Shown: positions 8,106 to 55,548 of the stretch, piece after piece | Numbering within the stretch: the stretch's first letter is position 1 | How the letters are laid out: each line of letters begins with the position of its first letter | DNA from: Strigamia acuminata | Lineage: Eukaryota | Assembly: GCA_949358305.1 (NCBI GenBank) | Contig: OX442314.1 | Span: 27,838,001 to 27,902,000 of the forward strand | Length of the DNA: 64,000 nt | Direction: 5' to 3' | Position numbers and translations under genes: made by a program | Notes under the pieces: generated by a model | What the model saw: only the letters and a program-made list of their open reading frames with translations | Told to the model about the DNA's origin: nothing | The model's database searches: none

Positions 8106-8114
8106 GGGGGGAAG
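8106..8114 (+). promoter_or_regulatory. Polypurine tract (plus-strand primer)
   Basis: GGGGGGAAG immediately 5' of the LTR start TGTTGCG. Confidence 0.9.
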
Positions 8115-12833: not shown

Positions 12834-12982
12834 ATGTGGAGAATCCTCCGCATTTACTGATATTTATACCATCGATTATTCAATCGATGGAATCGTGATT
12901 TGAACAAGACTAAACTATAAAAATAAAACAATTAAATGTTAGATATTAATATTATTGGCGGGGTCAGTCATAATGGTTTTAA

Positions 12983-17212: not shown

Positions 17213-17398
17213 CAGTGTAGGCTGCGTAGCCCAGACATAGCACCGTCCGGACAGCTGTGTGGTCTGGACAGTTTGGAAGGCCTGATTTGGTCCCGCCCAA
17301 TACCCAGCAATATTAAATCTCCTCTCCCGTCCGGACATTCCCTAGACCGGACAAGTTTCTGGGTCCCGTCCTATGTCCGGGCTACGCAGCCTACACTG
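17213..17398. mobile_element. TA-flanked MITE (Tc1/mariner type)
   Basis: TIR CAGTGTAGGCTGCGTAGCCC flanked by TA. Absent at the paralogous site ~55020. Confidence 0.85.
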
Positions 17399-18357
17399 TA
17401 TGTGACATTTAGGGAGTTACTGTGTGAGTGGTGTCATCATTTTTCACACTTGTAAAAATCTGTGTTTTGGACATTAAGAAAACCAACAGATGAAATTTTT
17501 AAACTTCATATGATGTAGTTTGCAATACATGTTATTTAAACATTTTTAGGTTACCATTTTTGGTCAACATCAATAAGAATAATTGCACCAACCTTCAAGA
17601 CACTAAAACTTCATTGGCATCGTTCATAAACAGTTCATTAACTACCGATGCAATGATAGACTGCGGTTGCCATCCACCTTGTGAAGAGCCAGTGTTTGAC
17701 ACCTTCGTTTTTTTTCAAGACACAAAAGCATGGCCACTCAAAATTCTCGCTATAATTCCAATGAACAACATAATTGAAGAATTTAAGCAAATATTATCCT
17801 ACACTGAAGTTGCATAGTGCTGCGACATTGGAAATTGTTTTTCATTAATGCTTGGCCTTTCAATTCTTGCAATTCCACAGCTATCACAAAAAATAGTTTT
17901 TCAATTTATGCGACTGACTAGAAAAAACTAAAATCTGCCATCACATTTTTCAAATACTATACACTGATATAAATCAAAAATTAAACGACAATTAAATCTA
18001 AAGCACATCCTAATAAATAATACGCACGTAAATAAATAAGTAAATAAATATAACAAAAAATCAACACACAGACGAAGCATGGCTAACAGTCACTAATCCA
18101 CACAATGCAGCTAAACTTTTCTATAAATCACCCACAAACTAAGTTTCACTTAAGAAACAACTTTAAATATTATCTTTTAATTTGACATAAACTCGGACGA
18201 CTTTTGTCAGCATAACATACTGTTGTCTGTTGTTTCACAAACGCTTAGTTGTTATAGAGTGGGAAAAGATCCTTAAAGATGTTTAAAAACTAAAAAGTGT
18301 CATTTCAGAATAATTTAGCCTCTCGGTTTGTATTTTAAGACATTAATTTTTCAACTA

Positions 18358-25930: not shown

Positions 25931-27244
25931 GATACAAAACGCGGTGGATTGAATAGATGTTGAAAATATGCGTTGTTTTGAAATTGATTTATTAATCTTT
26001 CCATTGAATTGTTTGTAAGTGTGTTTTATTTTGCATTTTTATTTTTACTTTATTTTAATTTATTTATTTTATTGTGCTATTTATTTAACTGCTTAAAATT
26101 TCGAGGTTTAATTAAAACTAGATTTAATTTGAGGTCAATCCAAATATTTTATTTTTTCACTTTCACAGCAGTATGAGGATATATGGATTTGACTAGTATA
26201 CGGTAAGTCACGAACCACTCATTACAATTCTCAGAAGTCTCATGAATTATTTAAAATACAGAGTAGTAATTACTTGTCAACTTTCTCAGAAAACCCATGA
26301 ATTATTTAAAATACAGAGTAGTAATTACTTGTCAACTTTCATAAAACATGAATATAGCTGCAATGCGGTGTTTTTGAGTGGATCGAGTGCCACGTTTTCA
26401 CCTGAGTGGACTTTAAAACCGTATGTATTTTTTCATGTCTATATTCAATTCATTATGAGCTTATGACAGAGATATTCAATCATATTCGAGTTTTGAGAAT
26501 CTGGATCAAATCATAGTAAAAAAAAAGCACTGGATTTGCAAAATAACATTCAAATTTATGTGAATCCCACTCTCTCAATACTATCAATAGTCAGTATTTC
26601 AACAAGAATGTAATTATCACACGGTTTTAAGTTCTGTTTTTTTTTTTAATGAAAGACGTCAGTTGCATTATTTTCGGATTGCTGTGACAACCAAAGCTAC
26701 GACGTTTATCCGAATGCACAGTAACGTGTTAAAAAGGTTCCTGTATAAACCCATCAGAACCAGCGGTGTAGCATGGGTTGCCATCAAGCAGAGCAAAACT
26801 AGTATTGTGCTCCCCTACCCAGGTAGTATTCCCTTCCACGGTTAGATTTGTATTATTTACCTATCAAAAGGTAAAATCGTCACACTCACTCAAAAACAAC
26901 CATGATAAATCATACTTTTGAAATATCAATATTTAATTACAATGTTATGACTTTAGTTCCTCTTTTACTGTTGCTCACAAATTGAAAGCAAACATTATTT
27001 TTGAAAATTACATTTCTATATTTTGGTATAAAATTTTTTTTTCATGGAAAATTCAGTTGGAAACAAATTAATTTTTGAAGTTTTACAACCATACACATTT
27101 ATGGGAAAAACAAATTAAATTAAATACAAATTTTAATCCAAAAGGACAAGTTTATTAATTTTTGTTGATCATTTATGTACCATCGATTGTTAAACTACAT
27201 ACAAGTTACGTACTTTTATCTTTTAAACTTGATTTGTAGACAAA

Positions 27245-30200
27245 ATGCCCGCTCCTAGAGCATTGCGCATCCGCCGGTTCCGTGTCCGTACTCGCCAATT
27301 TGTGCGACAAGAATTGCAAACTTCACTGTCGGGCAAAGATAGTTTGAAATATATAAACAAGGTTGTCAAGAACACTGGAATAGTTCGTGCAGTTTGGTTG
27401 GTTGGTTGGTTGGTTTGTTTCGGCATTTGCGGTTATCAAACATGGGAAAGATTACAATTCTACATTTCTGGACCCTTCAAAGTTGAAATTGATTTTGTTC
27501 CAATACAAGAAAGTAGATTCTCTGAAATTAGATTCATGGCCCTTGATACTCCTCTGATGTCGGAGTACTGGGACAAAATACCAGAAGGTAATTCACTTGA
27601 TGATGTAAAAGAGAGAATGATAGCTTGCAAGGCCCCAGTGAGAGGAATCATTTTGAAGAAAGTCAAAGTTAAAAATTACACACACTTGTGGGAACATTCC
27701 AACATTTCAGAAAATATGCAGCACTTTAAGTTCAGACAGGTAAGTAACCTTGGATAAATAAAAGAGCTGTATTAAAAAATATTTTTGCCAGTATTTTGCT
27801 AATAACTACTTTTTCAGGGCAAAACTGTATTACTTGAGACCAAGACGAGAAGTGGCAATTACACAAACCAAGAGTCAACAGTTGAATTAAAATATAAGAA
27901 TTCTGTTTTCGGCAGTACACTGATTGTGAAAACAGGTAAAATTCATATAATCATATTTTACATTTATTATACAGGGTGGAACAAAAGTCTGTTCCCCTCG
28001 AATATTTCCTGAGCAATTGCATCTAGGCCAACTTTGATGAAGCGATCATATAGGAAGTTGGGTGAGAGCAATCCAATGATGGCGTCAAATTTGACCTTGG
28101 AGGCCATTTTCAAGGTTATTCACTTGCTAACTTCTAAACCAATCAGGTTAGAGCAAAAAAGTCAATTACAAAGTTGAAGAGCACCATTTGTTTAGTCAAT
28201 ATCCACTTTTAAATCTTATTGTTACCTTTTCTTATCTTGTGAAAAAAGTGAAAACATAAATTTCAAAACTTCCTCAGTTACTAGAAAAAAATCAAATCAA
28301 ATCAAATTGAAGTTTTCTTTAACTTCTGTATTAGAATAATGAGGATAAGGAAAGGATAATTAGTCCAGTATTTGCTCAATGTGCCGACCACCAGCACCAA
28401 GACACAATTCTGCTCGGTTTTGTGTAGATTTGTACACTGCATCGATTGTTTGTGGTGTGATTCCAGCACATGCTGCTGTTATTCGATCTTTGATTTCATC
28501 TATAAATGCTGGCTGAGTTTTGTAGACAACATCTTTTACATGACCCCAAAGAAAGAAGTCTAATGGTGTTAGGTCAGGAGATCTTGGTGGCCATGCTATT
28601 GGCCCTCCTCGTCCAATCCAATGAACTCCAAATAAGGCATTTAAATGCTGACGAGAAGCAAGTGCGAAATGTGGAGGGGCACCGTCATGTTGATACCACA
28701 TTTGACGTGCCGAGGCCAGTGGTAAGTTGTCAACATACTCCTCAACTGTATTTGTCAAGATGAGATCACAATAACGCTGGCCTGTTAAAGTGCCATTGAA
28801 GAACACAGGACCAATGATTTCTTTGTTGTAGATTCCACACCACACATTACAGCGCCAATTTACTTGGTGTGCTACTTGGCGTAACCATCTAGGATTTTCT
28901 GAAGCCCAATAATGGAGATTGTGTCTGTTGACAGTTCCATTGCGTGAGAATTGGGCCTCGTCTGACCACAAGACTTTTTGAGGAAACAGTTCATCATTAT
29001 CAGTTTGGGTTAGGAACCAGTCACAATACTCTGCTCGAGTATTGAAATCAGTTCCATGAAGTTCTTGGTGGCAGTGTAAATGGTATGGATGGAAATGATT
29101 GGTGTGCAGTACTCTTAACACAGATGTATGGGCACAACCAACATCATTAGCAATTGCTCTGCTGCTGAGATGTGGGTTTGCTCCTACTGCTGCCAGAATT
29201 GTTGTGCTCATGTCATCATTTGTCACTGTTCTTGGCCGACCTTGTCGAGGACGTGACTGTACACTTCCCGTTTCCCGGAATCTCTGAACAATTGATCGAA
29301 GTGTTCGTGGTACTGGATGACGTCGATTTGGATATTTTGCACTGTACAACCTAGTTGCGGCTGCACCATCTTCATTTGCTGCACCATAGCAGAACATCAT
29401 GTCTACCATTTCTTGGTTTGTGTATTCTGACATAATGTCTGAAATTTGGATCTGGAAATTTTTTGAGTTTTTCTGGGAAATGAACGTGAGAACTTTGTAC
29501 TGAAAAGCAAGCACTTATTAGGATCAGCTTGTAATGAATCGCGTTTCTAAGATTAAATTAGACACGTTTTGAAATGCAGTATCTCAGGAGCCTGGTTTGA
29601 GTACCTGCCCGGCAGTCAATGTACACCGGAAGTTGGTGGCATACACTCCAAATACCTCTAGTCTTTACACAATTTTATTTTTTACCGGGCCTTACCAAGC
29701 CTTAAAAATGGAGACAGAAATGTTGAAACCAAAGAAATTTGGAAATTGACGCGTACTGACCAAGCAAATGCAAGGCAGCACGCCCGAAAAGAAACTAGAC
29801 ACGGAAATAATGGCTACATAAATCTTGCCCTATTCTGAGGCACACGTCACGTTGCTAAAATAAACAAAGGGAAAAAACAAAGGAATTCAAATGGAATAAA
29901 AACGAACGAAATGCGTATTCAAATGTGGTGAAAATGGAAAAAACTCAGTGGTCAGGAAATTGGTCCACACTGAGCAATGGGAAAGCAAAATATCAGCTCC
30001 CAAGTGAATTATGCAGGCTTGTGAGAATACCGGCTAGTTAAAGCTCTTACACATTCAAAGCTCAAAGCACAACTGACTTGAAAAAGGAAAAAGAGGTGAG
30101 AGCTAAACTTGGTCCAGAATAGACTGGGCCAAGCTTAACCAATCACGGAAAGGTCAGGAAACCAATCAAATGCATCGGTGCATACCAAATGGGTATGACT

Positions 30201-33200
30201 CATGACGATGCATTGAAGGTTTAGAAATATGCAAAACAAAACATAGAGAAAAGAAAGTAAACCAGGAAAGAAAGGTCGAAATTGAAACAAAATAAGAAAA
30301 AGTTAAGAGAAACTAACATAACAAACTTCAACACAAAATAAGGTAGGACTAGGAATTAGGTTTAATGAACGAACAAAACAAACAATGCACGAATTATGCC
30401 AACAAAACAATTGGAAACACAGGGGAAAAAGCGCGTAGAACTCGTGCGCGTATCCCTGGACCGTGACAAGCTGAACTGACAGTTAAGTTTTTATGTTCAG
30501 TTAACATGCTTAGTTTCTGATTTTTTTTGTCACATTTTTTTTTGAGTTTTGAAATTTATATTTTCACTTTTTTCACATGATAAGATAAGGTAACAATAAG
30601 ATTTAAAAGTGGATATTGACTAAACAAATGGTGCTCTTCAACTTTGTAATTGACTTTTTTGCTCTAACCTGATTGGTTTGGAAGTTAGCAAGTGAATAAC
30701 CTTGAAAATGGCCTTCAAGGTCAAATTTGACGCCATCATTGGATTGCTCTCACTCAACTTCCTATATGATCGCTTCATCAAAGTTGGCCTAGATGCAATT
30801 GCTCAGGAAATATTTGAGGGGAACAGACTTTTGTTCCACCCTGTATAATCTTTTTGGCTGTATTTTTTTTATTTTTTTATTTTTTTAAGATTTACTACCG
30901 GTTCAAAAGAGAAAATTGCATATCCTTTTTAAAAAAAATGGAACCTGTGACGAACCAGCGGTTGCAGTCAGTTCACTTTGCCAAATTGGGGATTCGTAAC
31001 ATGTGCAATATTCTTACGCGCGATAATACCAATCACACCTAAGAATGGTGTTGCATAGTGCAAACATTCGTACCTGCGACGCGTACAAATTACGTAGGCA
31101 TGTGTGTGCGCAATTAACGGGCGTACAAATCGGCCGAAAATGTCGGTGCCGACTCCAAGTCGCTTTGCTTGCGATGTTGGCACTGACTTCTACCAATCAT
31201 GCACTGACCGCTCCACACTGCGGGGCGTGACGGCATTCCCCATACCCCTAGACAACACATATTAAAGGCCAGCAACCAATAATAGGGAGTCTTTGTCATT
31301 TATTCGTGAGTATGCGTTCCACACCAGGATGACCAGTCCTCGGGTTACCTTGGCGAAGACCATACCAGTCACAATACTTATGATGTGCACATGTGCGACG
31401 TCGCGCATGAAAACACTTACAAAACTTGTCGTCGCGGTGTATGCATGCAAACATTATCGCAACGTCGCAAGTAAGAATATCGCATGTATGATAGAGGCCC
31501 GTCAAATTGTTTCTCCTTCAAGAGGGTGGCATATTTCGTTCAATCCTGATCATATAAATTGTTCACACTAACCTGATTTAGCGTGGCTATCCGAATATTG
31601 CACAATTGCGGCCATACAAATTGTTCATTGCACTTCCACCGTTTAATACTAGGTATCTCTGAAGGATGGTGTCATGCCCTATCGTTACACTTTACCAGTG
31701 CAGATGGGAATTGAAACTGAATATCAATTTATTTTGCGCAAAGTGAGTTAATTGCTTGTTTCTTTAGTTCTTGCAATTTATTCAATGATGCAGCAAGATT
31801 ACAGATATCTTGTGACAGTTATTAATGTCGATACATTTAACAAAAATAGTGATATGGTATTTCTTTTCTGCAAGTATCAATTTTTGCCTTCAAGAAACCC
31901 CTACTGTGAACCCAGCCTGATAAAGCAAACCCAATGTTATGAAAACTGTGTGTCAAAACAAACTCTAAAAAAACATCCACAGTGCTGGTCTGTAAACTTA
32001 GTACACTGAAACAATTGATAATGCTGATACTGTAGATTGTTTCCTTAGGTTGCCTTACATGGCTGACAAAAATCTGCCAGACTGCAGTTTAGAAGCAAAC
32101 AAATCAATTGTGTTGAAAGTGTATGACGACTCCTACCATCCCGAAATATCCACACTGGCAACAATTGAATGTGGTTGCCTAAGACCTTGTCAAACGAGTG
32201 CTTATATCCTAATAGTCAAGACCGATACTAGTTAAGTCAAACGATATCATTTTTAGGTGTAATTATAACAAAATTATTCAATTTTCACTGTTAGATTTTG
32301 AAGATGAACCCAGTAGTAAAGATTTAGCAAGTTTAAATCTTAAAGTGATGGAAGAAACATTTGTCAGAATGACAGAAATCTACATTTACAAAACTTCTAA
32401 TTTGGTCATCGATTTTGGCGGTAATCTAGGATTTTCTTTGGGATATTCGCTCCTCTCTATAATCGAAATTGTACAATTTGTTTCGCTTTTGTGCTACAAT
32501 AAGTATATTAGACCTATTCGACTACAAACTTACATTAAAACAAAAGTCATTTATCAAATTAAAATGTCAAATTTGAAGAAAAAGGCAAAGAAGACTTTGC
32601 CTCAAACCTCGCCCATGCTACAACGCACGTTTTTCATTCTCATTTTGATTTGTGCTTTCTTAGCAGTTTATGTGAGCAAAGAAAGAATTACATTATATCT
32701 GAGTGAACCAACAAGATATGTGGTAAATATTCAAGAAAATGACACATTATATATGCCCAACATTATTGCATGTATGGATGGACCCTTAACAACACGCTAC
32801 AGGAACCAATATGCCAAAATTACAGGCATTCCAGAATGCAAAGTTCACTTTGTTGATTTAATGAATACAACTATCAGAGAGAAAAAGCCATCAATGGAAG
32901 ATGTATGGCGCTTTCAAACACCTATTATGGATAAGATCACCATGGAATTAGCTGCAAGTGTAAGTGTTTGGTCTGATGTCCAAAAGTGTAAAAGAACAGT
33001 AATCGTTGTCTTTATGTTTCATCTGTGGGATGGGATGACATTAAATCCTGGTTCTTAACCTTTGTAGCAGTTGGCAACCCTTGACTTTTGCAGTCTCTGC
33101 TCACAGCTCACCAAAGGAAACTAACAAGGGAACCAGATGAATAAGTCATTTTAGATTTTGGCCAAATTTTGGCCAAATGATGTCTAAAATGAGCTTAATA

Positions 33201-36200
33201 ATTGCCTAAATTTTTAAATCTCTATGGTCAGCTGATTAACCATGGTAATTATCCCAAATCTGTACTCTTTTTGGGCTCTAGTAGACATTTTGAGTGAAAA
33301 GGCTGTGTGTAGGGATATGGTAAACAACTGGTTGCTGAGCAACAACTCCAGGAAAATAGTTCTGGAGCATTAATCCAGAACTATTTTTTCTGGAGTTGTT
33401 TTCTGGTCACATGGTCACATTCAGGAATTTTATGACTGTCTTCATGAAGACAATAATAGTTTGTAGTTCTGGTCCAGTGGTTAAAGCAATGGACTAGGAA
33501 TCTTTCCACACAGGTTCAAATCCTGCTGTCTGTGAAAATTTTTTCTGTTATTTTTTAATTTTTTTAGCAGTAATTTTAATGTTTGTAATTTTATGTTTGT
33601 TTTTAGAAAACTTTAATTAATTAATTTAATTTTTTAACAAACATAAAATTACAAACATTAAAATTACTGCTAAAAAAATTAAAAAATAAAAGTAAAAATT
33701 TTCACAGACAGCAGGATTTGAACCTGTGTGGAAAGATTCTTAGTGTATTGCCTTAACCACTGGACCACAACTACAAACTATTATTGTCTTCATGAAGACA
33801 GTCATAAAATTCCTGAATGTGACCATGTGACCAGAAAACAACTCCAGAAAAAATAGTTCTGGATTAATGCTCCAGAACTATTTTCCTGGAGTTGTTGCTC
33901 AGCAACCAGTTGTTTACCATATCCCTACACACAGCCTTTTCACTCAAAATGTCTACTAGAGCCCAAAAAGAGTACAGATTTGGGATAATTATCATGGTTA
34001 ATCAGCTGACCATGGATATTTAAAAATTTAGGCAATTATTAAGCTCACTTTAGACATCATTTGGCCAAAATTTGGCTTTGTACCCCTAGAATATCTATCT
34101 TGCACCCCCAGGTGGTTGTAACGATTCTACTTTTTTTCCGTCAAGAATGGTTGTTTTCCGTCAAAAATGGCCGTTTTTGATCAAGAATGGCCATTTATCG
34201 TCAAAAATAGCCTTTTTTGTCAAAAATAGCCTTTTTTGTCAAAAATAGCCTTTTTTGTCAAAAATAGCCTTTTTTGTCAAAAATAGCCTTTTTTGTCAAA
34301 AATAGCCTTTTTTGTCAAAAATAGCCTTTTTTGTCAAAAATAGCCTTTTTTGTCAAAAATAGCCTTTTATGTCAAAAATAGCCTTTTTTGTCAAAAATAG
34401 CCTTTTTTGTCAAAAATAGCCTTTTTTGTCAAAAATAGCCTTTTTTGTCAAAAGTAGCCTTTTTTGTCAAAAGTAGCCTTTTTTGTCAAAAATAGCCTTT
34501 TTTGTCAAAAATAGCCTTTTTTGTCAAAAATAGCCTTTTTTGTCAACAATAGCCTTTTTTGTCAAAAATAGCCTTTTTTGTCAAAAATAGCCTTTTTTGT
34601 CAAAAATAGCCTTTTTTGTCAAAAATAGCCTTTTTTGTCGAAAATAGCCTTTTTTTTGTCAAAAATAGCCTTTTTTTGTCAAAAATAGCCTTTTTTGTGA
34701 AAATTAGCCTTTTTTGTCAAAAATAGCCTTTTTTGTCAAAAATAGCCTTTTTCGTCAAAAATGGCTGTTTTTAGCCATTTTTTGTCAAAATTGGTTATTC
34801 TAGCCATTTTTAGTTAAAAATGGCCATTTTCATCATTGAAACGTTACAAAATGTAACGTTTCAATGACAAAAATGACGTTTCAGCAACGAATTTTTGACG
34901 GAACCGGTTTTTCTCCAATTGCCCGGTTTTCGGTACCATGATTTCTCACCGGGATTCCCGGGAAATCGGTAGCCCGGTTTCCCAGTATCGAAACCCTAAT
35001 GTGGAGAATCCTCCGCATTTACCGAGATTTATACCATTGATTATTCAATCGTTGGAATCGTGATTTGAACAATACTAAACTACAAAAATATAACAAATAA
35101 ATGTTAGATATTAATATTTTTGGTGGGTTCAGTCATGATGGTTTTAAGGCCATCGCGGGAGATTATTAAACCTCCATCCGCCACATAATCATAACAACTA
35201 AGAGCCATGACGGTCGTAGAATCATGAATGATCCATGGCCGGGATTTATTTTCCAGGTGTTCCTTCCCGCATGATAACACTTTATAAATACAACAGCAAT
35301 TCAATTACTCGGGCGAGCTATTGCCGGAACACACGATAACAAGTCATCACCTTTATAGTTAAGCTACTGAGGGGGCCTAATGCTTTTGAATAGAGATCAC
35401 AAAGACACAAACTAAACAGAAAAAGCCGCAGTTCCGGTGTTAACCGGAGTTTATATAGTTCTTGAGAACAATAGGATTAGAGGTGACTAATTGGGTACCA
35501 GAATCTAGAGATTCGGGGGTCCATTCTAAAGATAGGACCAAATCTCGAAGAGTCCAATTGGCTCTCTTCACATTGATATTGATTCATTTGTATCAATATT
35601 TTACTAAATAATACCTTATTTAGGTTAATACATATCGTATATTTATTCGTTTAATTATAACATTCATTATAATTCTGGTTTCAATGTTTAAACAGTGCGC
35701 GTTCGATTGAGCAGCGCCATCTAGCGTAAACTTTCACATTACACAAAGGGGAATCAGAAAAGAAATTTAAGTACTTAACTGGTTAAGTACTGAAGTGTGG
35801 AAATGCAACTGAGCATGCCCAGAAAATTTTTTAAAGTTTGTTTTTACACACTAACTTAAAACACAGGCTGCTAAACACTTAAAGTTATCAGTTACACTGC
35901 TTGAAAATTAATATTTACAAATTGTAAAATTCTTGTAAACATATTGTAAACATCAACTTTACATACGTTTAACTGCGTTTACAATGATTGTTAAATACGG
36001 AATTTAACAAGGATTTATCATCTTGTAAACAGACACTTTACAAACAGATTTTACTGCATATTTACAACAAGTTTAATTAAGTTTGTCATGATATTTACAG
36101 TAAATTTAAATTGGATTTACAGTACATTTGCTAATGAATTCCAGAAAATTTCTGTAAATTTACACAAACATTCCAAGAAATTTAAGTGAACTTTTTAACC

Positions 36201-45200: not shown

Positions 45201-48200
45201 ATTTTACGTCTAACCAGCCCGTTTCTGACACTTTTTCAATTTTTGGCCATTTCTTCATACATTAGCCTTGGCTTTTTTGCAAATTTTAAAGTGTCAAAAA
45301 CGTGCTGAAGGTTGTTTGATGGTTGTTTGAAGGTTGTTTGAAGGTTGTTTGAAGGTTGTTTAAAGGTCATTTAAAGGTAGTTTGTAGGTCATTTGAAGGT
45401 TGTTGGAAGGTCGTTTGAAGGTCGTTGAAGGTTGGTTGAAGGTTGTTGAAGGTCGTTTGAAGGTTGTTTGAATGTCGTTTGTAGGTCATTTGAAGGTTGT
45501 TGGAAGGTCGTTTGAAGGTCGTTGGAAGGTTATTGGAAGGTTGTTTGAAAGTTGTTAAAAGGTCATATAAAGGTCGTTGGAAGGTCATTTGAAAGTCATT
45601 TGAAGATCGTTGGAAGGTCGTTTAAACAAAATTGGAAGGTCGTTGAAAGGTTGTTGGAAGGTCATTGAAAGGTCATTGGAAAGTCGTTTGAAGGTCGTTC
45701 AAAGGTTGTTTGAAGGTCATTTAAAGGGTGTTTGAAAGTCGTTGAAAGTTTGTTTACTGAAGACATGTAAAATGAGCTAAAAAATTGATTCCCGTTGACA
45801 GAATTTGCATATCTGGCACCGTTGCAGAGATATAAGCAAAAAACTAACTTTTTAAACAGAAAAAGTCAGTTTTTTGCTTATATCTCTGTGTGTCAGATAT
45901 GCAATTTTCGCACACGGGAATCGATTTTTCAGCTCATTTTACGTCTAAGCAGCCTGTTTCTGACGTATTATTTTCAAGACGGCGTTGTGATTGGTTGAGA
46001 TCCATCGATGTCGGTTCGTTTCATTTTCTCAAATTGACGTTTTTGAGGTGTTAGCCTTTTTTTATAACGAGTGGGGCCTTGACCCCCAGACCTAACCTAA
46101 TCTGTTTTTAGCAAACAAGACAGAACTCAGTTTTTTTTATCACTGGATCTCAATGCATCGCTCAACCAATCACACAATTACAATTAATTTTGTTTTCTGT
46201 TTAATTTTTAAGATGTGGTTTGATTAGTTTGATACAGCTGGAAGATATTAGGGGGTTTCATTAATTAAGCAATTTTGTAATTTTGCAACTTTAGCAATTT
46301 TGCACTTTTGGATTTGTCACATGATATCAGTTGCACCAATCATGTGCATAGTTGCAAAAACACAAAACAGAAAAAATACACAATCACAAAATCAAAGGTA
46401 GTTTTGTTATTTTGGCAAAAATGGCAGCAGCCAAACTCAATCCAAGTGGCCATCACAAATTGTGATTAATAATTAGTTTCAAAAACAATCTCATAATTTT
46501 GCAATTTTGCAATTATTTAAATAGTCACGTGACTTCCTATCCACCATATTAGGTTATAGTTATATCCAACCAATTTTAAAATGTGATGCAAAAAAACTAG
46601 TTCTTATTTGTGTGATGGAACAAAATATTTTTTAATAAGGTGCATTTTAATAAATACTAGCTGTTCACCCACAAAGCCAAAGCCATAGATCAGACAAATG
46701 TATACAACCAAATCATAAAATAAATTTTTGCAAAACTAAACCAAACCCATAATAATGCAACCCAAACCCAAACTACACCAAACCAAAACCAATGCCAATC
46801 TGGCCAATACCCAAACACAATCAAACCCAAAAGTTAACCTAAACCCAACGCCAATCCAGCCAATTCAATTTTGGCCCAAACCACTGCAACCTGCTATTTT
46901 GTCCTCCTTTATTATTCAACCACTTTTTCCAACTTTTTCTTATAAATCAACCCAAAAAAGATCGTTTTTTCCAAAATTTAAAATCAACGGTTAATCCGAT
47001 CAAAAAGTTATCTGTACCATCGTTTTCAGCGGGATTTTCTTCTCCGGAAACCTGTTTTAAACATTTCATTCGGTTAATTTTACGAATTTTTGGTTTTGTC
47101 ATGGTCGAATCTCGAATTCAAATTCTGCACCAAATTTCCAAATTTTCCCATTCGGTCCCCCGCTAAGATGGCCCGAATCGGCACTTTTCCTCGCCCGAAT
47201 CAAAAAATAAAAAATACAGGCTTGTGCAGAATTGTCTCCTCTTCAAAATGAGCTTGGTTCCATAATTTTCCGAGCTCATCTTGACATAGAAAACAATAAA
47301 AAACGATACGCGACGAACATTTCCGCCTGAATTTCCATTCGGGCACACGCTAAAATCGCCCTGAATCGCCCTGAATCGGTACTTTTTTTTACCCGAATCG
47401 AAGTATTGAGTTTCCTAGCTGTTATACAGTCATGGATGCATCAGCATTTTGATGATATACAAGGATACAAGTTGGCCACTTAGATAGAGCTTGGATGCCT
47501 CCATTTTGTTTTGAGTTTCACAAGCCTCAAAATCACTTCTTATCAAAATCACAAAAACTACCTTTTAGATGTTTTTGGGATTTTGTGTTTTTACTCTTTT
47601 GTGCTTTAGTGAATGTGAATGTGATTGGTAGAACAGATATCACATGACAATACTCAAAAATCACAAAATTGTCCAGATCACACAATTGCAAAATTGACTG
47701 GGTTAATTCAATGTAAACTCATTTTTGGAGGCATCAAAAAATAATGATTTTGTGATTAATGCAAAATCACAAAATTGCAAAATCATTCATATAATGAAAC
47801 CCCCTATTTATTTTTTAGCATTTTTATTATGAATCTAATAAATTTTGCTAAAAATAAACATTAAAGTCAAATATTTATGGATGCTAAGAAACTAAATGAA
47901 TGTTTTTAAATTGATTTAGCTAATAAAAAGCATAATAACTCAAGTAATAACACAAATAAAGTAATAAAATCAACATTGCCAGGGCCACTGAGAGTAGATT
48001 CGGACCCTGATTAAATCAAATTTTTGGGTTTCTACCAGCTAAAATTCACCAAATCTACATGGCAATGAGAAAAAAGTTCGAAATTTGCAATAAAAATCTT
48101 ACATGTTTTCAGCTAAATAATAGTTACATTTAAGTTTTGGACGGAATTTCGTTAAAATTTAGCAAATTCCGATGAGATTTTGCAATTTTGGAAAATTTTG

Positions 48201-51200
48201 ATGATTTTTGATGAACTTTACCGATTTTCGGTGAAATTTTGTGATTTTCATCGAAAACTATTCAGAAAACGCTAATTTTTATAAAAATTCATTCGATAAT
48301 CACTAAATTTCATCGAAAACTATTTAAAGAGTGCTATTTTTTAAGTGTTTTAAATGTTTGTGTTTGCCGCTCACGTGTATTTGGTTCATGTCTATGTTTT
48401 TTAAATGTTTGTATTTTTAATTTTGTATCTCAGACTCTGCCTGCAGACGACGGTTATTACAAACTGATATGCCACATTCATATCCATATGAACAAATACT
48501 GTAGCAACAGTCAACAGGTCAACAGCTTATCAATAACAAAAAATCATATTTAGCATCGTCAATTTGTACAAATTGGCAATACGCTCTGGTTGCATTAAAA
48601 AATAAATGTTTCAAGTGTTTTAGGTGTATGTGTTTTTGTTTTGAATGTTAAAGAATACAAAATACAAAATATTAAAATATAAAAACATTTAAAACAACAC
48701 TTTCTGAATGCAGCTGCTATTTAGCTGCAAAAACGGATTTTTTTATTGCAAATTGCGAACTTTTTTCGTAAAAATAAATTAAAATAAACCGTTTGTTTCA
48801 TTTTAAAAAGTGGAACTTAGTACAATCACTGTTGATCTTTCTACAAGATTCTCCTGTGCACAAACGAGTGAAAATTTTAAGATGTTATTGCAACTGCAAA
48901 TAGCAAAAATTACTTTTCTTCCCATTCGTTTTCAAAATCACGTCGATTACTATCATATAAATGTTGCAGCGTTTCTTTCTGTAGCAGTTCGCTATCAGGT
49001 GCTGGAGTTTGTAGAATCTGAGGGAGGTCAGTAAACCAAAAATGTGAATATTATCACTTTCAAATCCATATCGTTTTTATTTATTTAAAAAAAAAACCAA
49101 CACATTTTCGAATTAATAATTAAAAACCGTACATTCGGGTTTGAGGTGGATTTTTTATTGTTTTATTGTCGGTACGAAAAAAAATAAAATTAAGAAAAAA
49201 AAAATATTTTATTTGTTTATTTATTTTATTTTGAGGATTTCTGTTTTTTCTTGCGTGCTCTGCTGGTTGTGTGTAATACATGTCAACATACAAGTAGATA
49301 ACACGGCATTTATGGAGAAATCCAAGTGCAACGTTCAATTATTACTCTCTATGTACATAAAAGTTTTAGATTGAATTAGAACTTTCTAGAATGTGTTGGG
49401 CGGAATGCACACTATATGCTTCACTGATTATGTGGGGGTAAAAGTGTGGGGAATGACCTACACACCTGTAGCCTAAGGCATCCAATGGGATGCTAATCTG
49501 TTCTTGACCACATAGTTTTCATCTGATGTTTAAGTTTTATTAAATAACTACTTGCTCAATCTTTCTCCTGGCTTCAATACTCCAATTAATTCCAACTTAT
49601 TGGTCAACTCCTATTGACTGGAAATAGATTTTATAAACATATAGTTTAGTTGTGAATGATATATCCACCAAAACTGAACCTAATTTTCCATTCCAACATA
49701 AAGTTTTATTTCAGCAACAGATTTTGTGTAAACTATTGATTCATACGAGGTATAATATTTAATTACATTCCGTTTAAAATAATTGCATTGTCTTTATTAC
49801 AGTCTGTATTAATTAATTAATTAATAAGTTTTTTTGTTGAAAAGATTATCAGAAAAGTTATTAATTGGTAAACACCGAATATTTATGCAAAAAAAATTCG
49901 TTTTATGCAGTAAAAAATATAAAAATATTGTAAAGCTTCAAATAAATGCCTAGATTGAATAGAACTTTCTAGAATGTGTTGGACGGAATGGCAGCTGCAC
50001 GTCACTGATTACGTGGGAAAAATAGTGTGGGGAATGACCTGCACACATGTAGCCTGAGGTGTCCAATGGGATGCTAATCTGTTTCCATACTGTGTTTGTT
50101 TACACTGGACAGCCTCATTTTGAATCAAGGGTGACGTCATTGGTAAACACTGCCATTCCAGCTCAATTATTTTGCTAATTAAACAATTTAGATATCTGCC
50201 ATTATTTTAAAATAAATCATACTTGTCTTGATATTACTGACTTTTTTAAATATATTTTTAGATCACAAAACATTTTTAATTCACATAGCTTATTTGTTAT
50301 GGCAAGTATAGCAGTAATAACAGAAGGAAATGCATTCATTGCGGAATAACTTATTCAAGAAGTCATTATTATGATCGCATTCAACTTTGTCAGCAACAAG
50401 GATCTTCTCACAGTGTTGAAAGCTTAAGTTTATTTGAAAAAATATTGCAAGTTCCATGAATCAAATTGGACATATTCAAACACATGATCTTTTTTCAGAT
50501 ATAGACACTTGAAGAAATACCACAATTTTTTTTATGCTTAAAATGATATATAATGTTCTAAATAAAATTATATCACAAAGTAGAAATTATAATTGTTTAA
50601 CTGAAATGTAATAGTTTATATTCTTTATTAGTAGAATCTGTATAGTAATCATATAAAACAAGAATAAATTTTATTTATTTTTGTGCATCACTATAAATAA
50701 GAAAGATGAAAACAGCAATGTGTCAATAATAATTTTCAACAACACACACCATTCTGCATTTATACAATGTTTATGAATGAATACTGTAGAAAAAATGCAT
50801 TAGTTTGAATTAATTTGAATTATAAATTATATTTCGAAAAAGAAAAAAAAATTCCACAAATTCATGGAATTTTTTTATCTTCATAAATTTCAACAAATTG
50901 CTATATTCGATTTAGATAGATAGATACGTTCATTTGGATGTTGTTATCAGTTTCCATACAATTTTTATGCCAATAAATGAATAAAGTATAATTACTTTAT
51001 ATTTCCATGAAATTTACAATATATTTTATAAATAAACAAAAAAGTTGTAAATTTGAAGTAAAGTCCATGTTTAGCAATGAAATTTAACATGCGTGTCACT
51101 TCAACTTTACAAACAAAGCGAAATATAGAATTTAACAAGAAATTTACAAACTTTTTTTTTTGTAAATCTGTAATTTCAAGCAGTGTTAAGTGTTTAGCAG

Positions 51201-54200
51201 CCTGTGTTTTAAGTGAGAGTGTAAAAACAAACTTTAAAAAATGTTCTGGGCATGCTCAGTTGCATATCCACACTTAAGTACTTAACCAGTTAAATACTTA
51301 AATTTCTTTTCTGATTCCCCTTACAGTTTTACAACCGTCACATGATTCATGCACAATCTGTTTAGAAACACTGCATAAAATACTTGTACACACGAAATGT
51401 GTCAAAGAACATCAGAAAAACAATGTCTGCCATCCAATCCCCAATGCGTCGAAAACTGTGGCAGTGATTGAATACACAGTAGATCGATTTGCATTGAATC
51501 AAAAGGCATTTGACAAACCTATTTTGAACCTGTTAGATAGACTGTGCTAGTGCTAGATCAAACTAGTCCTTTCTACTAAATTCAATCATTTACAGGATTG
51601 TGCATAAAATGTATGCATAAAATGTATTTTCTTAACAGTACCTACGAACAATAGCAAATGTATCTTGGAGCAAAATAGCTATGCACACAGGAACATGCTA
51701 TCAATCTCAAATAGGTAATTAAAAATTTGTACACAAATTTTATAACAATTATAATGACATTATTTTCTTAGAACCACTAAAATATGCAGGAACTGCTTCA
51801 GCAATATTTTTTAGTTTTCGACCAAACAAACATCAAATCTGTAACCAAAATCAGTACGAGGTAATGAACACATTCCATTTGTCATCAACTCTTAAATTTT
51901 GCACGGTACTCGAATAAATACACAAGTTGCACAATACTTATCCACTGGGCGGACAAGAGTCGCCGTCAAGAGTCATAGTAATTAATCATTTTGATAAATT
52001 ACTAAAGACATTTGCAGTAAGCACTGAGATGAAATGTACTGTCATGTGCATGGTTTTCATCCCTTTTCTAATTTATTAGATTTTTCCATTTTATTATTTT
52101 TCTAAGTTAACCTATTTTTATTTCTATTATTTCTGCAAGTGATCTTTTATAATGAGATCAAATTAGTTACCACCCCAAATACATTTAAAAATCCCCCAAA
52201 TCTATTTAGTTGCACACCAATTATTCACACACTATTTTTATGTGATCAGAGCTGATTTCTGGGCTAACAGACCTGTAAAATTCACTTTCTGCACTGCAAA
52301 AAAAATTAGATTTTCGTCGATAAAATATTTTGGAAATATAACTAAAATGCGATATTTCCAAACCCGAAAGTTATATATTCCAAATTGTACAAACATAAAA
52401 TTTCCAATGACTTTCCAACACTGAATGCAGCCGTTTCCAAACTACTTTTTATAGCATAATATATTAAATTTCCAAACAGTTAAACACATATTTCTCAACC
52501 AGTAAAGTTAAGATTTCCAAATGTAAAATATGAGTTTCCCATCAGTAAATAACAACTTTCCAAATATAAAATTTGATATTTCTTTTTTAATAGAAATTCT
52601 AAATTAGTTAAATCTCAAAATAAATCTCGTAAAAATAAATCCCTAGAAATTTCCATAAAAATTTAATACATCCTGAAAATATGCAGAGGATTCACTCCTG
52701 AATCCTGAATCCTGAATTTGTTTCTGAATTCTAAATCCTGAATTTGTTTCTGAATTCTAAATCCTGAATTTGTTTCTGAATCCTGAATCCATTTCTGAAT
52801 CCTGAATTCTAAATTCATTACTGAATTCTGAATTCATTCCTGAATCATAAATTCTAAATTCTGAATCTTGAATCCAATAATCTTGAATCCTGAATTCATA
52901 AACCAAGGCTATAATCATAGCCTAATACAAAAAATAAGCAAAATCAACTGAAGGCAGTGATAAAAACTCGCATTGATATGATGGTATGACAAATTCTAGA
53001 ATCAAATTAAAATGTTACACTACAAAATTTGTGTCAACTTTTTAATTTATCTAACTCTAACAATAATAATCTAATTGTTTGTTGAAGTAGAAATGATAAA
53101 ACCAATCCCATATTTAAAATCTGTGATTATAAATTATTGTTCTGAAGGTGTGATGAAATAGAAATGTCAAAAATGGTGTAGAGAGTTGAAAAAACATGAC
53201 TGCTCAGCTCGCAAATGTAATGTACACTAGGGTGACTCTTTTATTACCCTCTGAAAACATACAGTATATACAAAGAAGCTCCCATTGGAGCAAACACTCC
53301 TAACTTTATTGCCCCAGCCACATTCCAAAGTTGGGGGCTGAGGCCAAACTTGTGCAAATAGGAAATAAAATATAACATAATTAATTATTATCTAAATACT
53401 ATAAAATAAAGATTAGTAATACTAAATATTATAAAGTTAAATCAAATCAAAACAAAATACAAATATTGAATATAATACTTAAAATAGATAACACAAAATA
53501 GAATGAAATAAAATAAAATAAAATAACTCATTAAAGGGAAAGTGAAAGAAATTATAAAATGATGAAAATAACACGTGTAAAACGGTCAGTTTTCACACCA
53601 TATTTAATAAATATAAATTTTGAATTAGTTTTGAATTATGTTTGCCATCTGGTGATAAACCCATAAATTTTACAAGCTGGAAACATAGGATCTTTAGTCA
53701 TCAATTTTTAGGCTTGAGAAATGAATGGAAATATAAATTTCCAAATCTAATTTACATTAACATTCCATACAATTATAATAATTTGAATCATCATCTTTCA
53801 GTGTTGAAAATTTATAGAAATTTAAATTTCCAAACCTAGTTTACATTAGCTTTCCACACATTTAACAAAAACTAAAATGTCATCTTTTGGTGTTGAAAAT
53901 TTACATAAATTTAAATTTCCAAACCAAATTTACATTAGCTTTCCATACATTTAACAAAAACTTACAACATCATCTTTCAGTGTTGTAAATTTACAGAAAT
54001 TCAACTTTCCATAAAATATTTCCCATTTCCTTTCCATTATATTTCAAAACTGGAATTTATCCAATTTCACCATTAACTTTCCAATAACTTTTTTTTTGGA
54101 AATCCAAAATTTTTTGCAGTGCTGGCTTGATTGTCAACAGAGTACATCTCTCTATACTTTCAGTTAGTTAGTCACTCTTCTTCTAAACCCTGGCACAACA

Positions 54201-55548
54201 CAGCAGCTTGGTTAAAACGCAAGTCATCTGCTAGTGGCATTTAAAGGTGGATTTCACAACTGAATAAGCCTTTGTGCCTTAAACAAGCGCACTCCATCCA
54301 ATTTCTAACTGTCTCGTGCCTATTTCCCCACTATTTTAAGCCATGCTTAGTGATCATTCTCCATCCCTAATTGAGTTTGAGACCTGAGTCAAACCCTTTC
54401 TTTTAGGTTAGTCAATACTAACAAAACACTCAAATCTTGCAAATACAAAATAGTGTTGTAAACTTCAGCGAATTGGGATTTCACGACCGCCTGACATCCT
54501 TATTAAATTGCGGCCATCTTTGGGACTTCCCACGAACCTGGACCCACGCGCATACTTCCACTTGCGCGTAGTAAACTTATTTAAATCCACCAACAACCGG
54601 ATTGAACGTGACAGTACTTACACCAGCATGTATTTTTGTTAATTGTAGCGTTGTTTGATCAGAACTGACTTCCTGCTAAATATCAAGAATACGATAACTG
54701 TAGTTTTCTTTCTGTAGGTGTACTTTAAACAAAGCGAAGCAACAATTCCATCAATTCCCTCAATACTAAGAAGCAGAAGAAGTATTAAAACAGACACCTT
54801 TACCATTCTCACATTCAAAATGTTTAAAGTATGTTTGCAGACAATTATATAAACAAAACTACTAAATCGATTGTTTTAATTTAGACCATTCGATTAAATC
54901 TGAAATCTCAACCTTGCCTTGACCATGACAAATACATGAGATGCCAAGATGATTGCTACGAAAAAAAGATTTATAATATAATTCAGTGCAGGTGAGTATT
55001 GCCTTTTCTTTTTATATCTATGTGACATTTAGGGAGTTACTGTATGAGTGGTGTCATCACTTTTCACACATGTAAAAATCTGTGTTTTGGACATTAAGAA
55101 AACCAACAGATGAAATTTTTAAACTTTATATGATGTAGTTTGTACATGTTATTTAAATATTTTTAGGTTACCATTTTTGGTCAACATCAATAAGAATAAT
55201 TGCACCAACCCTCAAGACACTAAAACTTCATTGGCATCGTTCATAAACAGTTCATTAACTACCGATGCAATGATAGACTGCGGTTGCCATCCACCTTGTG
55301 AAGAGCCAGTGTTTGACACATTCGTTTTCTTTCAAGACACAAAAGCATGGCCACTGAAAATTCTCACTATAATTCCAATGAACAACATAATTGAAGAGAT
55401 TAAGCAAATATTATCCTACACTGAAGTTGCATTGTGCTGTGACATTGGAAATTGTTTTTCACTAATGCTCGGCCTTTCAATTCTTGCAATTCCACAGCTG
55501 TCGCAAAAAATAGTTTTGCAATTTATGCGACTGACCAGAAAAAACTGA
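27245..55548 (+). CDS. DEG/ENaC (pickpocket-like) channel with two tandem subunit domains, ~834 aa, 12 exons
   Basis: Exons: 27245-27739, 27818-27935, 30890-30966, 31653-31742, 31875-31987, 32049-32230, 32295-32959, 51639-51714, 51772-51860, 54718-54828, 54885-54991, 55167-55548. They join in frame with GT-AG introns (2505 nt). Motifs: TM1 RAVW..YISGP, CxLPY, CGCLRPC, TM2 [19 protein letters not shown]; then second TM1 ..YLSEPT, TGTCY, CRLPF, CGCHPPC, TM2 [15 protein letters not shown]. Confidence 0.85.
27972..30843 (-). mobile_element. Tc1/mariner DD41D (rosa/Visitor-type) transposon with ~300-bp TIRs, in ENaC intron 2
   Basis: TIR CAGGGTGGAACAAAAGTCTGTTCCCCTC... with TA TSD. Empty site in unit 1 at ~9384. 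Confidence 0.95.
28360..29514 (-). CDS. DD41D transposase (probable start at MSEYTNQE, ~29433)
   Basis: N-terminal HTH region, [30 protein letters not shown]. 41 residues counted between the 2nd and 3rd catalytic Asp. Uninterrupted. Confidence 0.95.
   Translation of the reverse strand: MLAFQYKVLTFISQKNSKNFQIQISDIMSEYTNQEMVDMMFCYGAANEDGAAATRLYSAKYPNRRHPVPRTLRSIVQRFRETGSVQSRPRQGRPRTVTNDDMSTTILAAVGANPHLSSRAIANDVGCAHTSVLRVLHTNHFHPYHLHCHQELHGTDFNTRAEYCDWFLTQTDNDELFPQKVLWSDEAQFSRNGTVNRHNLHYWASENPRWLRQVAHQVNWRCNVWCGIYNKEIIGPVFFNGTLTGQRYCDLILTNTVEEYVDNLPLASARQMWYQHDGAPPHFALASRQHLNALFGVHWIGRGGPIAWPPRSPDLTPLDFFLWGHVKDVVYKTQPAFIDEIKDRITAACAGITPQTIDAVYKSTQNRAELCLGAGGRHIEQILD
33463..33534 (+). pseudogene. 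tRNA-Ser-derived degenerate sequence (left arm of foldback)
   Basis: GTAGTTCTGGTCCAGTGGTTAAAGCAATGGACTAGGAATC...AGGTTCAAATCCTGC resembles animal tRNA-Ser. A and B boxes are present; the variable arm is shortened and the acceptor stem is mispaired. Confidence 0.65.
33703..33774 (-). pseudogene. tRNA-Ser-derived degenerate sequence (right arm of foldback)
   Basis: Inverted copy GTAGTTGTGGTCCAGTGGTTAAGGCAATACACTAAGAATC...GGTTCAAATCCTGC. Confidence 0.65.
36430..37650 (-). pseudogene. Degenerate multi-exon gene within the CACTA-like element (possible accessory DNA-binding protein)
   Basis: AG/GT-bounded segments translate as ..[69 protein letters not shown] and [24 protein letters not shown], with in-frame stops. 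Confidence 0.45.
38270..38770. repeat. Degenerate ~20/21-bp tandem repeats
   Basis: (AAATCACTAAAGTTCATCGG)n followed by (AAAAATTCTATCAAATTTATC)n. Confidence 0.8.
40054..40818. mobile_element. CAGGGTG-type long-TIR MITE
   Basis: TIR CAGGGTGGTCAGAAAGTCTGG..., TA TSD, ~320-bp arms. Confidence 0.9.
40987..41741. mobile_element. CAGGGTG-type long-TIR MITE
   Basis: TIR CAGGGTGTTTCGTTTAA..., TA TSD. Confidence 0.9.
41981..42704 (+). pseudogene. Captured multi-exon coiled-coil gene fragment
   Basis: Short AG/GT-bounded exons: [100 protein letters not shown]. Confidence 0.55.
42859..43612. mobile_element. CAGGGTG-type long-TIR MITE
   Basis: TIR CAGGGTGAACAAAAAGTCTATC..., TA TSD, ~280-bp arms. Confidence 0.9.
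43781..44092 (+). mobile_element. Single arm of a further CAGGGTG-type element
   Basis: TA-CAGGGTGTCTCG start. 43980-44092 is highly similar to 40250-40370. No partner TIR found. Confidence 0.6.
44285..45155. repeat. C-rich tandem array (CTAAATTC7-10)n
   Basis: Dozens of units of TAAATT followed by C runs. Confidence 0.95.
45305..45745. repeat. 11-bp minisatellite (TTGAAGGTYGT)n
   Basis: Repeated gaaggttgttt/gaaggtcgttt units. Confidence 0.9.
52292..54121. mobile_element. Non-autonomous CACTA-like element containing (TCCTGAA)n repeats
   Basis: CACTGCAAAAAA...TTTTTTGCAGTG termini, 3-bp TSD CTG, subterminal TTTCCA repeats. Absent from unit 1. Confidence 0.8.

What the first reader, a model, noticed from the sequence alone, without database searches (positions are those of the whole stretch)
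27245..55548. Natural concatemer: one gene encoding two DEG/ENaC subunits head-to-tail (4 TM)
Seen: a single 665-bp exon (32295-32959; also ORF 10816-11622 in copy 1) encodes TM2 of one subunit ([17 protein letters not shown]), a ~45-aa basic cytoplasmic linker, and TM1 plus the ectodomain start of a second subunit. The fusion therefore does not depend on a predicted splice. All 12 exons join in frame to ~834 aa. Established: DEG/ENaC/ASIC/pickpocket subunits have 2 TMs and assemble as trimers. Inference: a covalent dimer cannot fill a trimer evenly. It would need a separate third subunit (fixed-order heterotrimer), leave a domain excluded, bridge two channels, or be cleaved in the K/R-rich linker.
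Basis: partly seen in the sequence, partly recalled or inferred. Interest (0 to 1): 0.88.

Follow-up and report, generated by a model that had tools for sequence, protein, structure and literature searches.

The report
Centipede two-subunit DEG/ENaC concatemer gene
A centipede-type gene carries the coding sequence of two different sodium-channel subunits joined head to tail in one reading frame, as do at least 16 database relatives; since such channels are built from three subunits, the fused pair likely fills two of the three seats and would leave the third to a separate protein.

Summary
Confirmed in DNA, not yet in RNA. Twelve GT-AG exons (27245-55548) join into 834 aa with four hydrophobic segments and two complete DEG/ENaC domains, A and B. 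The junction (TM2 of A, about 41-47 aa linker, TM1 of B) lies inside one 665-bp exon. A and B are 19% identical yet share four intron positions and phases, so they come from an old gene duplication followed by fusion. Sixteen Strigamia maritima database proteins have the same junction. A units group with A and B with B (moderate support), and an A+B sister pair is rejected (AU p=0.006). The linker shows purifying selection between the window's two copies (pN/pS 0.35). B units have consistently altered pore residues. The nearest solved channels are the centipede homotrimers BRTNaC1 and PDPNaC1. Best mechanism (inferred, 0.45): a fixed A-B pair plus a separate third subunit; main rival: self-assembly with a spare or bridging domain (0.3). 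Copy 1 is a pseudogene, and copy 2 has a 15.6-kb intron insert. Shrimp proteins with three units in one chain appear to be an independent case. Nine literature searches found no description.

The parts
26169..26202 (+). Candidate 5' non-coding exon (34 nt, AG...GTAAGT, stops in all three frames)
   Evidence: Sequence; inferred, no RNA. An AG acceptor sits at 27238-27239, five bases before the ATG.
27245..27739 (+). Exon 1: start codon, N-terminus, TM1 and finger of unit A (aa 1-165)
   Evidence: Pfam ASC 11-67, E 3e-4; family HMM E 2e-11
27818..27935 (+). Exon 2 (unit A, aa 166-204)
   Evidence: donor kept in copy 1; the intron after it aligns with that after exon 8
30890..30966 (+). Exon 3 (unit A, aa 205-230); the least certain donor (GTCAGT)
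31653..31742 (+). Exon 4 (unit A, aa 231-260)
31875..31987 (+). Exon 5 (unit A thumb cysteines, aa 261-297)
32049..32230 (+). Exon 6 (unit A thumb, aa 298-358)
32295..32959 (+). Exon 7, the fusion exon: end of A ectodomain, A TM2 (about 32390-32494), basic linker (about 32495-32617), B TM1 (about 32618-32704), B finger (aa 359-580)
   Evidence: pN/pS 0.40 against copy 1, Fisher p 0.004
35746..51322 (.). 15.6-kb insertion in intron 7 of copy 2, absent from copy 1; terminal inverted repeats (about 190 bp, 84%) and an ACA target duplication; holds apparent sense-strand exons at about 41981-42705
51639..51714 (+). Exon 8 (unit B, T-G-x-C motif, aa 581-605)
51772..51860 (+). Exon 9 (unit B, aa 606-635)
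54718..54828 (+). Exon 10 (unit B, aa 636-672)
54885..54991 (+). Exon 11 (unit B thumb cysteines, aa 673-707)
55167..55548 (+). Exon 12: unit B thumb, TM2, short tail, stop (aa 708-834)
9293..17931 (+). Copy 1: tandem paralogue with the 3' half of exon 2 and exons 3-12, splice sites kept, no exon indels; cut in exon 2 by an LTR retrotransposon and with a stop before B TM2, so a pseudogene

Best explanation
The gene holds two different DEG/ENaC subunits, A and B, in one open reading frame, and the predicted four-TM protein likely fills two neighbouring seats of a trimeric cation channel whose third seat would be taken by a separately encoded single subunit. Shown: two whole domains in one frame, a junction inside one exon, an old A/B split, selection on the linker, and a different pore signature in B. 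Inferred origin: a single-subunit gene duplicated in tandem, and the last exon of the upstream copy merged with the first coding exon of the downstream copy; the fused gene then multiplied as a unit. Inferred function: fusion fixes the A-to-B order and ratio and lets the two halves specialise. A keeps the standard pore lining. B has Asn/Ser at the positions of PDPNaC1 Gly375 (lower gate) and Gly378 (selectivity), and mostly lacks the 18' acid. The result would be an asymmetric, ENaC-like heterotrimer. A sensory role (heat, protons, chemicals) is a guess from the two characterised centipede relatives.
For: Two whole domains. Both halves of a model of the relative P0008 align to a whole BRTNaC1 subunit (aa 48-389, Z 13.3, rmsd 8.6, 308 aligned; aa 444-779, Z 12.8, rmsd 5.8, 308 aligned; model pLDDT only 53). 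Of 47 hits, 16 named S. maritima proteins plus one unnamed record (P0026) carry the TM2-linker-TM1 junction; spacing is 88-116 aa in the 17 rows measured. Four introns fall in the same alignment column and phase in A and B at 19% identity. Trees: A|B needs 1 change against about 9.7 shuffled, 0 of 500, and 1 change at support 67/86; A+B of one gene as sisters is rejected for 3 of 3 genes tested (AU p 0.006, 0.004, 0.013). pN/pS is 0.43 over aa 205-834 (p 2e-4) and 0.35 in the linker (p 0.037). Both units keep eight thumb cysteines and G-x-S, so both look built to line a pore. Position 3' is Gly in 18 of 18 A units and 1 of 7 B units; none of 7 B units has both the 3' and 6' glycines; 18' is acidic in 13 of 18 A and 1 of 7 B. 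PMC12714832 (passages): Gly378Ser changes selectivity. PMC5449180 (passages): each E18' contributes to selectivity. A single-unit S. maritima protein (P0023) lies in the same clade (97/97), so a candidate type of third subunit exists.
Against: No transcript or protein evidence for this locus. No third-subunit gene lies in the window, and none was shown to be co-expressed or to bind. Engineered ASIC1a head-to-tail dimers gave currents with no added subunit, with lower bands suggesting cleavage or incomplete synthesis (PMC4529235, passages), so a partner is not strictly needed. Tree support is moderate: in the 20-row tree the free search needed 2 changes (8 of 500 shuffles as low), although A and B clades were not rejected, and branches are long. 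The relatives are automatic gene models, many partial, and whether their junctions lie in one exon could not be checked. Copy 1 is dead, and copy 2 carries a 15.6-kb insert with sense exons that could trap splicing. Unit A of this gene has lost the beta-2 and beta-4/5 cysteines and has Ile at the degenerin site, so it may be degenerating.
Confidence: 0.45

Rival explanations
1. The fused protein assembles with itself. Two chains give one trimer (A-B-A or B-A-B) with a spare domain left out, or three chains give two tethered trimers (A2B plus AB2), which would cross-link channels into pairs or arrays.
For: Engineered ASIC1a dimers and tetramers are functional alone (PMC4529235, passages). There is no single-unit DEG/ENaC in the window. 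Two-unit relatives far outnumber single-unit ones among the named S. maritima hits, 16 against 1, although the query was the junction exon and so favours them.
Against: A left-out subunit exposes large interfaces and would likely be degraded (inference). The consistent B pore signature fits one fixed seat better than mixed A2B/AB2 pores (inference). Linker length is held at about 36-64 aa, short for bridging two channels.
Confidence: 0.3
2. One gene but two proteins: the linker is cut by a cytosolic protease, or B is made from an internal start, and free A and B subunits then form ordinary heterotrimers.
For: The window's linker has two in-frame Met and 11 K/R. Engineered concatemers give lower-order by-products (PMC4529235; PMC10329638; passages).
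Against: Met position is not conserved and Met is absent from 3 of 17 linkers; an R-x-K/R-R site occurs in 2 of 17 and not in the window's. The linker would face the cytosol, out of reach of furin-type enzymes (established knowledge). No strong splice donor lies in the linker.
Confidence: 0.1
3. The architecture is real in the family, but this locus is a decaying copy that makes no working protein.
For: The tandem copy is a pseudogene. Copy 2 has a Tc1/mariner element in intron 2 and a 15.6-kb insert with sense exons in intron 7. pN/pS of 0.4-0.6 is relaxed. Unit A lacks a conserved cysteine pair.
Against: All 12 exons are open, all splice sites are GT-AG and kept in both copies, and there are no exon indels. 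The loss in copy 1 can itself raise pN/pS.
Confidence: 0.1
4. Two neighbouring genes with separate mRNAs (A ends and B starts within 'exon 7'), or a tetrameric channel made of two A-B chains.
For: AATAAA/ATTAAA hexamers occur at 32534 and 32558, though such words are common in this AT-rich DNA. A and B gene pairs duplicated together would give the same tree. One paper argues for ASIC1a tetramers (PMC4529235, passages).
Against: A would have no stop codon before B TM1. The linker is under coding constraint and is 55% identical (22 of 40) to that of P0001. The centipede relative PDPNaC1 is a homotrimer by cryo-EM (PMC12714832).
Confidence: 0.05

Closest known systems
BRTNaC1 (Scolopendra heat receptor; PDB 8ymr/8ymw/8ymx; PMC9974506)
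   Same: Best solved match by profile (E 6e-40) and by fold; centipede DEG/ENaC with a short ectodomain; each half of the two-unit model aligns to one whole subunit.
   Different: One 431-aa subunit per chain; here two different subunits, 19% identical to each other, in one chain. Function here untested.
PDPNaC1 (Scolopendra proton-dissociation channel; PDB 9jf7; PMC12714832)
   Same: Second-best match (E 6e-31); also lacks the HG motif; gives the numbering for the pore positions compared here.
   Different: Single 421-aa subunit, homotrimer, Gly at 375 and 378; unit B has Asn and Ser there.
Engineered ASIC/ENaC concatemers (PMC4529235, PMC10329638, PMC5449180)
   Same: Head-to-tail TM2-linker-TM1 joins that give working channels and fix subunit order.
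   Different: Laboratory constructs of known subunits; this one is natural, old and multiplied into a family.
Vertebrate ENaC alpha-beta-gamma heterotrimer
   Same: Fixed-order heterotrimer with unequal pore helices (established knowledge); a beta-gamma dimer structure exists (9btu title).
   Different: Three separate genes, far more distant in sequence (E 1e-4 to 1e-8); gating by furin in the ectodomain has no counterpart here.
Internally repeated channels (two-pore channels, K2P, Nav/Cav; recalled, not tested)
   Same: Arose by duplication and fusion of a subunit gene, followed by divergence of the repeats.
   Different: There the repeat number (2 or 4) divides the four-fold pore; here two repeats do not divide a three-fold pore.
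Three-unit shrimp proteins (Halocaridina rubra P0013, P0038, P0039; unnamed P0049)
   Same: Several DEG/ENaC units in one chain, with units grouping by position across genes.
   Different: Three units, a separate clade, so apparently an independent fusion; uncharacterised database entries, not a described family.

Membership tests
DEG/ENaC superfamily | Pfam ASC (PF00858) domain | tested here: met
   Exon-7 ORF 47.5 bits with two stretches, exon-12 ORF 24.4 bits (cut-off 23.6), exon-1 ORF 20.3 (below); two whole domains with a local family HMM. The spliced protein was not run on Pfam.
DEG/ENaC superfamily | Two TM helices flanking a large ectodomain, per subunit | tested here: met
   Met for each unit by hydropathy; the chain as a whole has four, which is the departure from the family norm.
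DEG/ENaC superfamily | Cysteine-rich thumb | tested here: met
   Eight cysteines in each thumb, aligned. Unit A lacks the beta-2 and beta-4/5 cysteines that unit B keeps.
DEG/ENaC superfamily | TM2 with D-x-G start and G-x-S belt | tested here: met
   A: DFGG...GYS; B: DIGN...GLS.
DEG/ENaC superfamily | Palm/thumb/finger fold | tested here: met
   Tested on the relative P0008, not on the window protein; low-confidence model; both halves Z about 13 to BRTNaC1.
DEG/ENaC superfamily | Pre-TM1 HG motif (common, not universal: 43% of insect PPKs per PMC8438182; absent from PDPNaC1) | tested here: not met
   No HG dipeptide in the 834 aa; not treated as defining.
DEG/ENaC superfamily | Trimeric assembly; amiloride-sensitive cation current | not testable with these tools
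   Needs expression, electrophysiology or cryo-EM.
Insect pickpocket (PPK) subfamilies | Falls within the insect PPK radiation | tested here: inconclusive
   Profile match to Pickpocket 26 is E 1e-6 against 6e-40 for BRTNaC1; no tree with named PPKs was built.
BRTNaC1/PDPNaC1-type centipede channels | Single about 430-aa subunit forming homotrimers | tested here: not met
   Two non-identical units in one 834-aa chain. A related channel, not a member in this respect.

The most novel reading that the evidence does not exclude
Arthropods have at least twice evolved single-chain multi-subunit DEG/ENaC channels: three-unit chains in shrimps that would be a whole channel, and a large centipede family of two-unit chains that cannot fill a trimer evenly. 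The two-unit chains either cross-link trimers into tethered pairs or arrays (three chains, two pores) or act as a fixed two-thirds scaffold whose third seat is filled combinatorially: an assembly rule not described for trimeric channels.
Probability: 0.35. Interest if true: 0.9.

Novelty: new variant of a known kind. Interest (0 to 1): 0.74.

Why it matters
DEG/ENaC subunits are described as two-TM monomers that form trimers, and fixed-order versions exist only as laboratory constructs. A natural, old, expanded family of covalent dimers poses a concrete question: how do two fused subunits fill a three-fold pore? It can be tested directly in oocytes and by cryo-EM. It also offers a natural record of how each seat of a heteromeric pore specialises once its position is fixed, since B has diverged at the gate and selectivity positions. 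In practice, multi-ASC proteins in databases are easily dismissed as gene-model fusions; grouping of units by position in a tree separates real fusions (centipede, shrimp) from likely artefacts (midge, leech). The family may be part of the sensory repertoire of centipedes, whose two characterised DEG/ENaCs sense heat and protons.

Tried and rejected
RNA: no RNA holder listed. The two runs found, X1 and X2, cover introns as well as exons and show no exon-exon joints, so they behave as DNA. This is no evidence on expression. No whole genome was held. Word-indexed protein searches were insensitive: 0 hits, 2, 2. The metagenome scan gave one unrelated single DEG/ENaC exon, L001. ESM Atlas returned only single-domain ASC clusters of 376-485 aa; it holds only clusters of 50 or more, so this shows neither novelty nor absence. 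Complex prediction of P0008 unit A with unit B: no verdict (0.12, mark 0.34; alignment not used). Earlier findings of the scan: none in 3 look-ups. Rejected: a third unit up- or downstream (no exon found); the ORF at 51302-51550 as an exon (it gives a stop in phase 0, and exon 7 joins cleanly to 51639); a recent in-gene duplication (AU test); furin cleavage. Polypedilum P0012 (3 units), Helobdella P0017 (2 units) and S. maritima P0005/P0006/P0019 have units that group within a gene or subfamily; these may be merged models of tandem genes and were not counted as support. A finer look at paralogue indels across the linker in X1/X2 was not obtained; the 12 of 29 indel rows shown include three 1-nt gaps at 32586-32593 in one X2 contig (net 3) and a 3-nt insertion at 32628, but X1 lists only one of the three gaps, so this is weak.


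Full report
Observation. The 665-bp exon is at 32295-32959 between a canonical AG and GT. It reads without a stop from a DEG/ENaC TM2, through a basic stretch, into a TM1 and the start of a new ectodomain; the other two frames have 16 and 15 stops. Pfam ASC hits this ORF with two stretches. There are four hydropathy peaks. A profile built from 31 units of relatives, leaving out the window protein and P0001, finds two whole domains (aa 44-423, E 2e-46; aa 466-829, E 1e-67) and no other DEG/ENaC exon in the window, so there is no third unit here. A likely non-coding exon lies upstream of the ATG.

Two copies. The window holds a tandem duplicate about 94% identical in DNA. Copy 1 (9293-17931) keeps exons 3-12 with the same splice sites and no exon indels, but exon 2 is cut by an LTR retrotransposon (pol ORF 3-4415) and codon 797 is TAG: it is a pseudogene. 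Copy 2 is intact in frame but has a Tc1/mariner element in intron 2 and a 15.6-kb inverted-repeat element in intron 7 with apparent sense exons. Between the copies, pN/pS is 0.43 over aa 205-834 (Fisher p 2e-4), 0.40 in exon 7 (p 0.004) and 0.35 in the 41-codon linker (8 non-synonymous and 6 synonymous changes, p 0.037). The linker has therefore been read as protein. The 'all' row includes non-homologous bases of exon 2 and was not used.

A family. An exhaustive HMMER search with the exon-7 peptide gave 47 hits. I looked up names for 30 proteins. Sixteen S. maritima proteins (P0001-4, 8-11, 14, 18, 20, 22, 24, 34, 36, 41) and one unnamed record (P0026, a 241-aa product on a 1154-nt contig, 25-32% identical to any of them) carry the same junction. 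The closest, P0001, is 65% identical, and 55% in the linker, so the window likely comes from a geophilomorph centipede. The distance from the TM2 Asp to the Pro after TM1 is 88-116 aa in the 17 rows that my pattern caught; P0010 and P0048 dropped out. The most complete relatives (P0004, P0008, P0009) start about 40-50 aa before A TM1; P0003, P0008, P0009, P0020 and P0048 end 31-39 aa after the start of B TM2. Two units is thus the family norm. These are automatic gene models, and I could not check their exon structure.

Origin. A and B are 19% identical (67 of 355), yet introns 2-5 and 8-11 fall in identical alignment columns with identical phases; introns 1 and 7 are both phase 0 in the poorly aligned finger; intron 6 is unique to A. 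Exon 7 is thus the end of one ancestral gene joined to the first coding exon of its duplicate (inference). In a 60-row quick tree all 14 A and 14 B units separate with one change (shuffled mean about 9.7, 0 of 500). In a 41-row careful tree (short or redundant rows left out) there is one change at 67/86 and in 76% of bootstraps. In a 20-row tree of seven two-unit genes the free search needed two changes, A and B clades were not rejected (p 0.52), and sisterhood of a gene's own A and B was rejected for 3 of 3 genes tested (p 0.006, 0.004, 0.013). Branches are long and the roots are midpoints, so 'fusion before the radiation' is likely, not proven. Unfused A/B neighbour pairs would give the same tree; the single open exon is what separates the two readings.

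Structure and pore. The family profile's best solved matches are the centipede channels BRTNaC1 (E 6e-40) and PDPNaC1 (E 6e-31), far ahead of ASIC, ENaC and Pickpocket 26. A low-confidence model of P0008 (pLDDT 53) aligns by each half to a whole BRTNaC1 subunit (Z 13.3 and 12.8). Both units keep eight thumb cysteines and the G-x-S belt, and neither has the HG motif. At position 3' (PDPNaC1 Gly375, lower gate), 18 of 18 A units have Gly against 1 of 7 B units. At 6' (Gly378, selectivity), 16 of 18 A have Gly and 5 of 7 B have Ser. At 18', 13 of 18 A are acidic against 1 of 7 B. Gly378Ser raises Na+ selectivity in PDPNaC1 (PMC12714832), and each E18' contributes to selectivity in ASIC1a (PMC5449180). 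So A and B look like two specialised seats of an asymmetric pore (inference).

Mechanism. PDPNaC1 is a homotrimer and trimers are the family rule (established knowledge). I favour A-B plus a separate third subunit (0.45), because both halves look pore-competent, differ in a position-specific way, and a single-unit relative (P0023) lies in the same clade. Self-assembly with a spare or bridging domain is the main rival (0.3), since engineered ASIC1a dimers conduct on their own (PMC4529235). Cleavage or internal initiation (0.1) is disfavoured: Met is absent from 3 of 17 linkers and an R-x-K/R-R site is present in only 2 of 17. A dead locus (0.1) and separate mRNAs or a tetramer (0.05) remain. 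Nothing here tests assembly or expression.

A second case. Three Halocaridina rubra proteins have three units each, and the units group by position across genes (the short middle units of P0039 and P0049 were left out of the trees). P0049, a 1035-aa product on a 3441-nt Logan contig, is 37% identical to P0039 over its whole length. An ORF that fills nine tenths of its contig fits a spliced transcript, but its source is not given. These lie in a different clade from the centipede family, which suggests an independent fusion.

Literature. Nine searches found no description of natural DEG/ENaC concatemers. What I saw: PMC12714832, part 1 of 9 plus passages; passages of PMC9974506, PMC4529235, PMC10329638, PMC5449180, PMC8438182, PMC5203786, PMC7067487 and PMC9822975; term searches with no hits in PMC4244043 (the S. 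maritima genome paper) and PMC10148893. PMC8438182 notes that 8% of insect PPK models have three to five predicted TMs, without comment in the passages seen, and cites Vizueta et al. 2020 for PPK-like sequences in S. maritima; I did not see that paper. No supplements were read and most subscription papers are not in the library, so a prior mention cannot be excluded. The comparison with two-pore, K2P and Nav/Cav channels is recalled.

Verdict. A real, old gene fusion that defines an undescribed two-unit branch of centipede DEG/ENaCs: a new variant of a known kind, interest 0.74. It is held back by the lack of RNA or protein evidence and by the fact that the sequences already sit, unnoticed, in public databases.

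Noticed in passing
P0013, P0038, P0039 (Halocaridina rubra); P0049 (unnamed Logan record): Three DEG/ENaC units in one chain, grouping by position across genes: candidate natural single-chain trimeric channels, apparently independent of the centipede fusion.
   Followed up: partly
window 35746-51322: 15.6-kb element with about 190-bp terminal inverted repeats (starting AAGGGG) and an ACA target duplication, absent from copy 1. It holds nested repeats, apparent sense-strand exons for a coiled-coil protein (about 41981-42705) and lysine-rich antisense ORFs (36905-37511); no Pfam hit, no transposase seen.
   Followed up: partly
window 3-9292: Ty3/Gypsy-type LTR retrotransposon with an open pol ORF (3-4415) followed by three further sense ORFs (4578-4898, 5173-7854 of 893 aa, 8407-9066) with no convincing Pfam family; its end interrupts exon 2 of copy 1.
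   Followed up: partly
window 28360-29514 (-): Full-length Tc1/mariner-type transposase ORF (DUF4817, HTH) in intron 2, inside a segment flanked by about 305-bp inverted repeats (27966-28270 / 30545-30849) that are very high-copy in runs X1/X2.
   Followed up: no
window 19882-20825, 57138-57711, 59122-59979 (-): BTB-BACK genes lie tail to tail with each channel copy and were duplicated with it; some copies are frameshifted or truncated.
   Followed up: no
P0005, P0006, P0019 (S. maritima): A second multi-unit subfamily with at least three closely similar units per model; real concatemers or merged tandem genes, not resolved.
   Followed up: partly
window 32390-32400 (aa 397): Unit A has Ile at the degenerin site in both copies, where relatives have small residues (S, C, A, T, G); large residues there open some DEG/ENaCs constitutively (established knowledge).
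   Followed up: no
window 44288-45157: About 870-bp C-rich tandem array (runs of C broken by TAAATT), potentially G-quadruplex-forming on the minus strand, inside the intron-7 insert.
   Followed up: no
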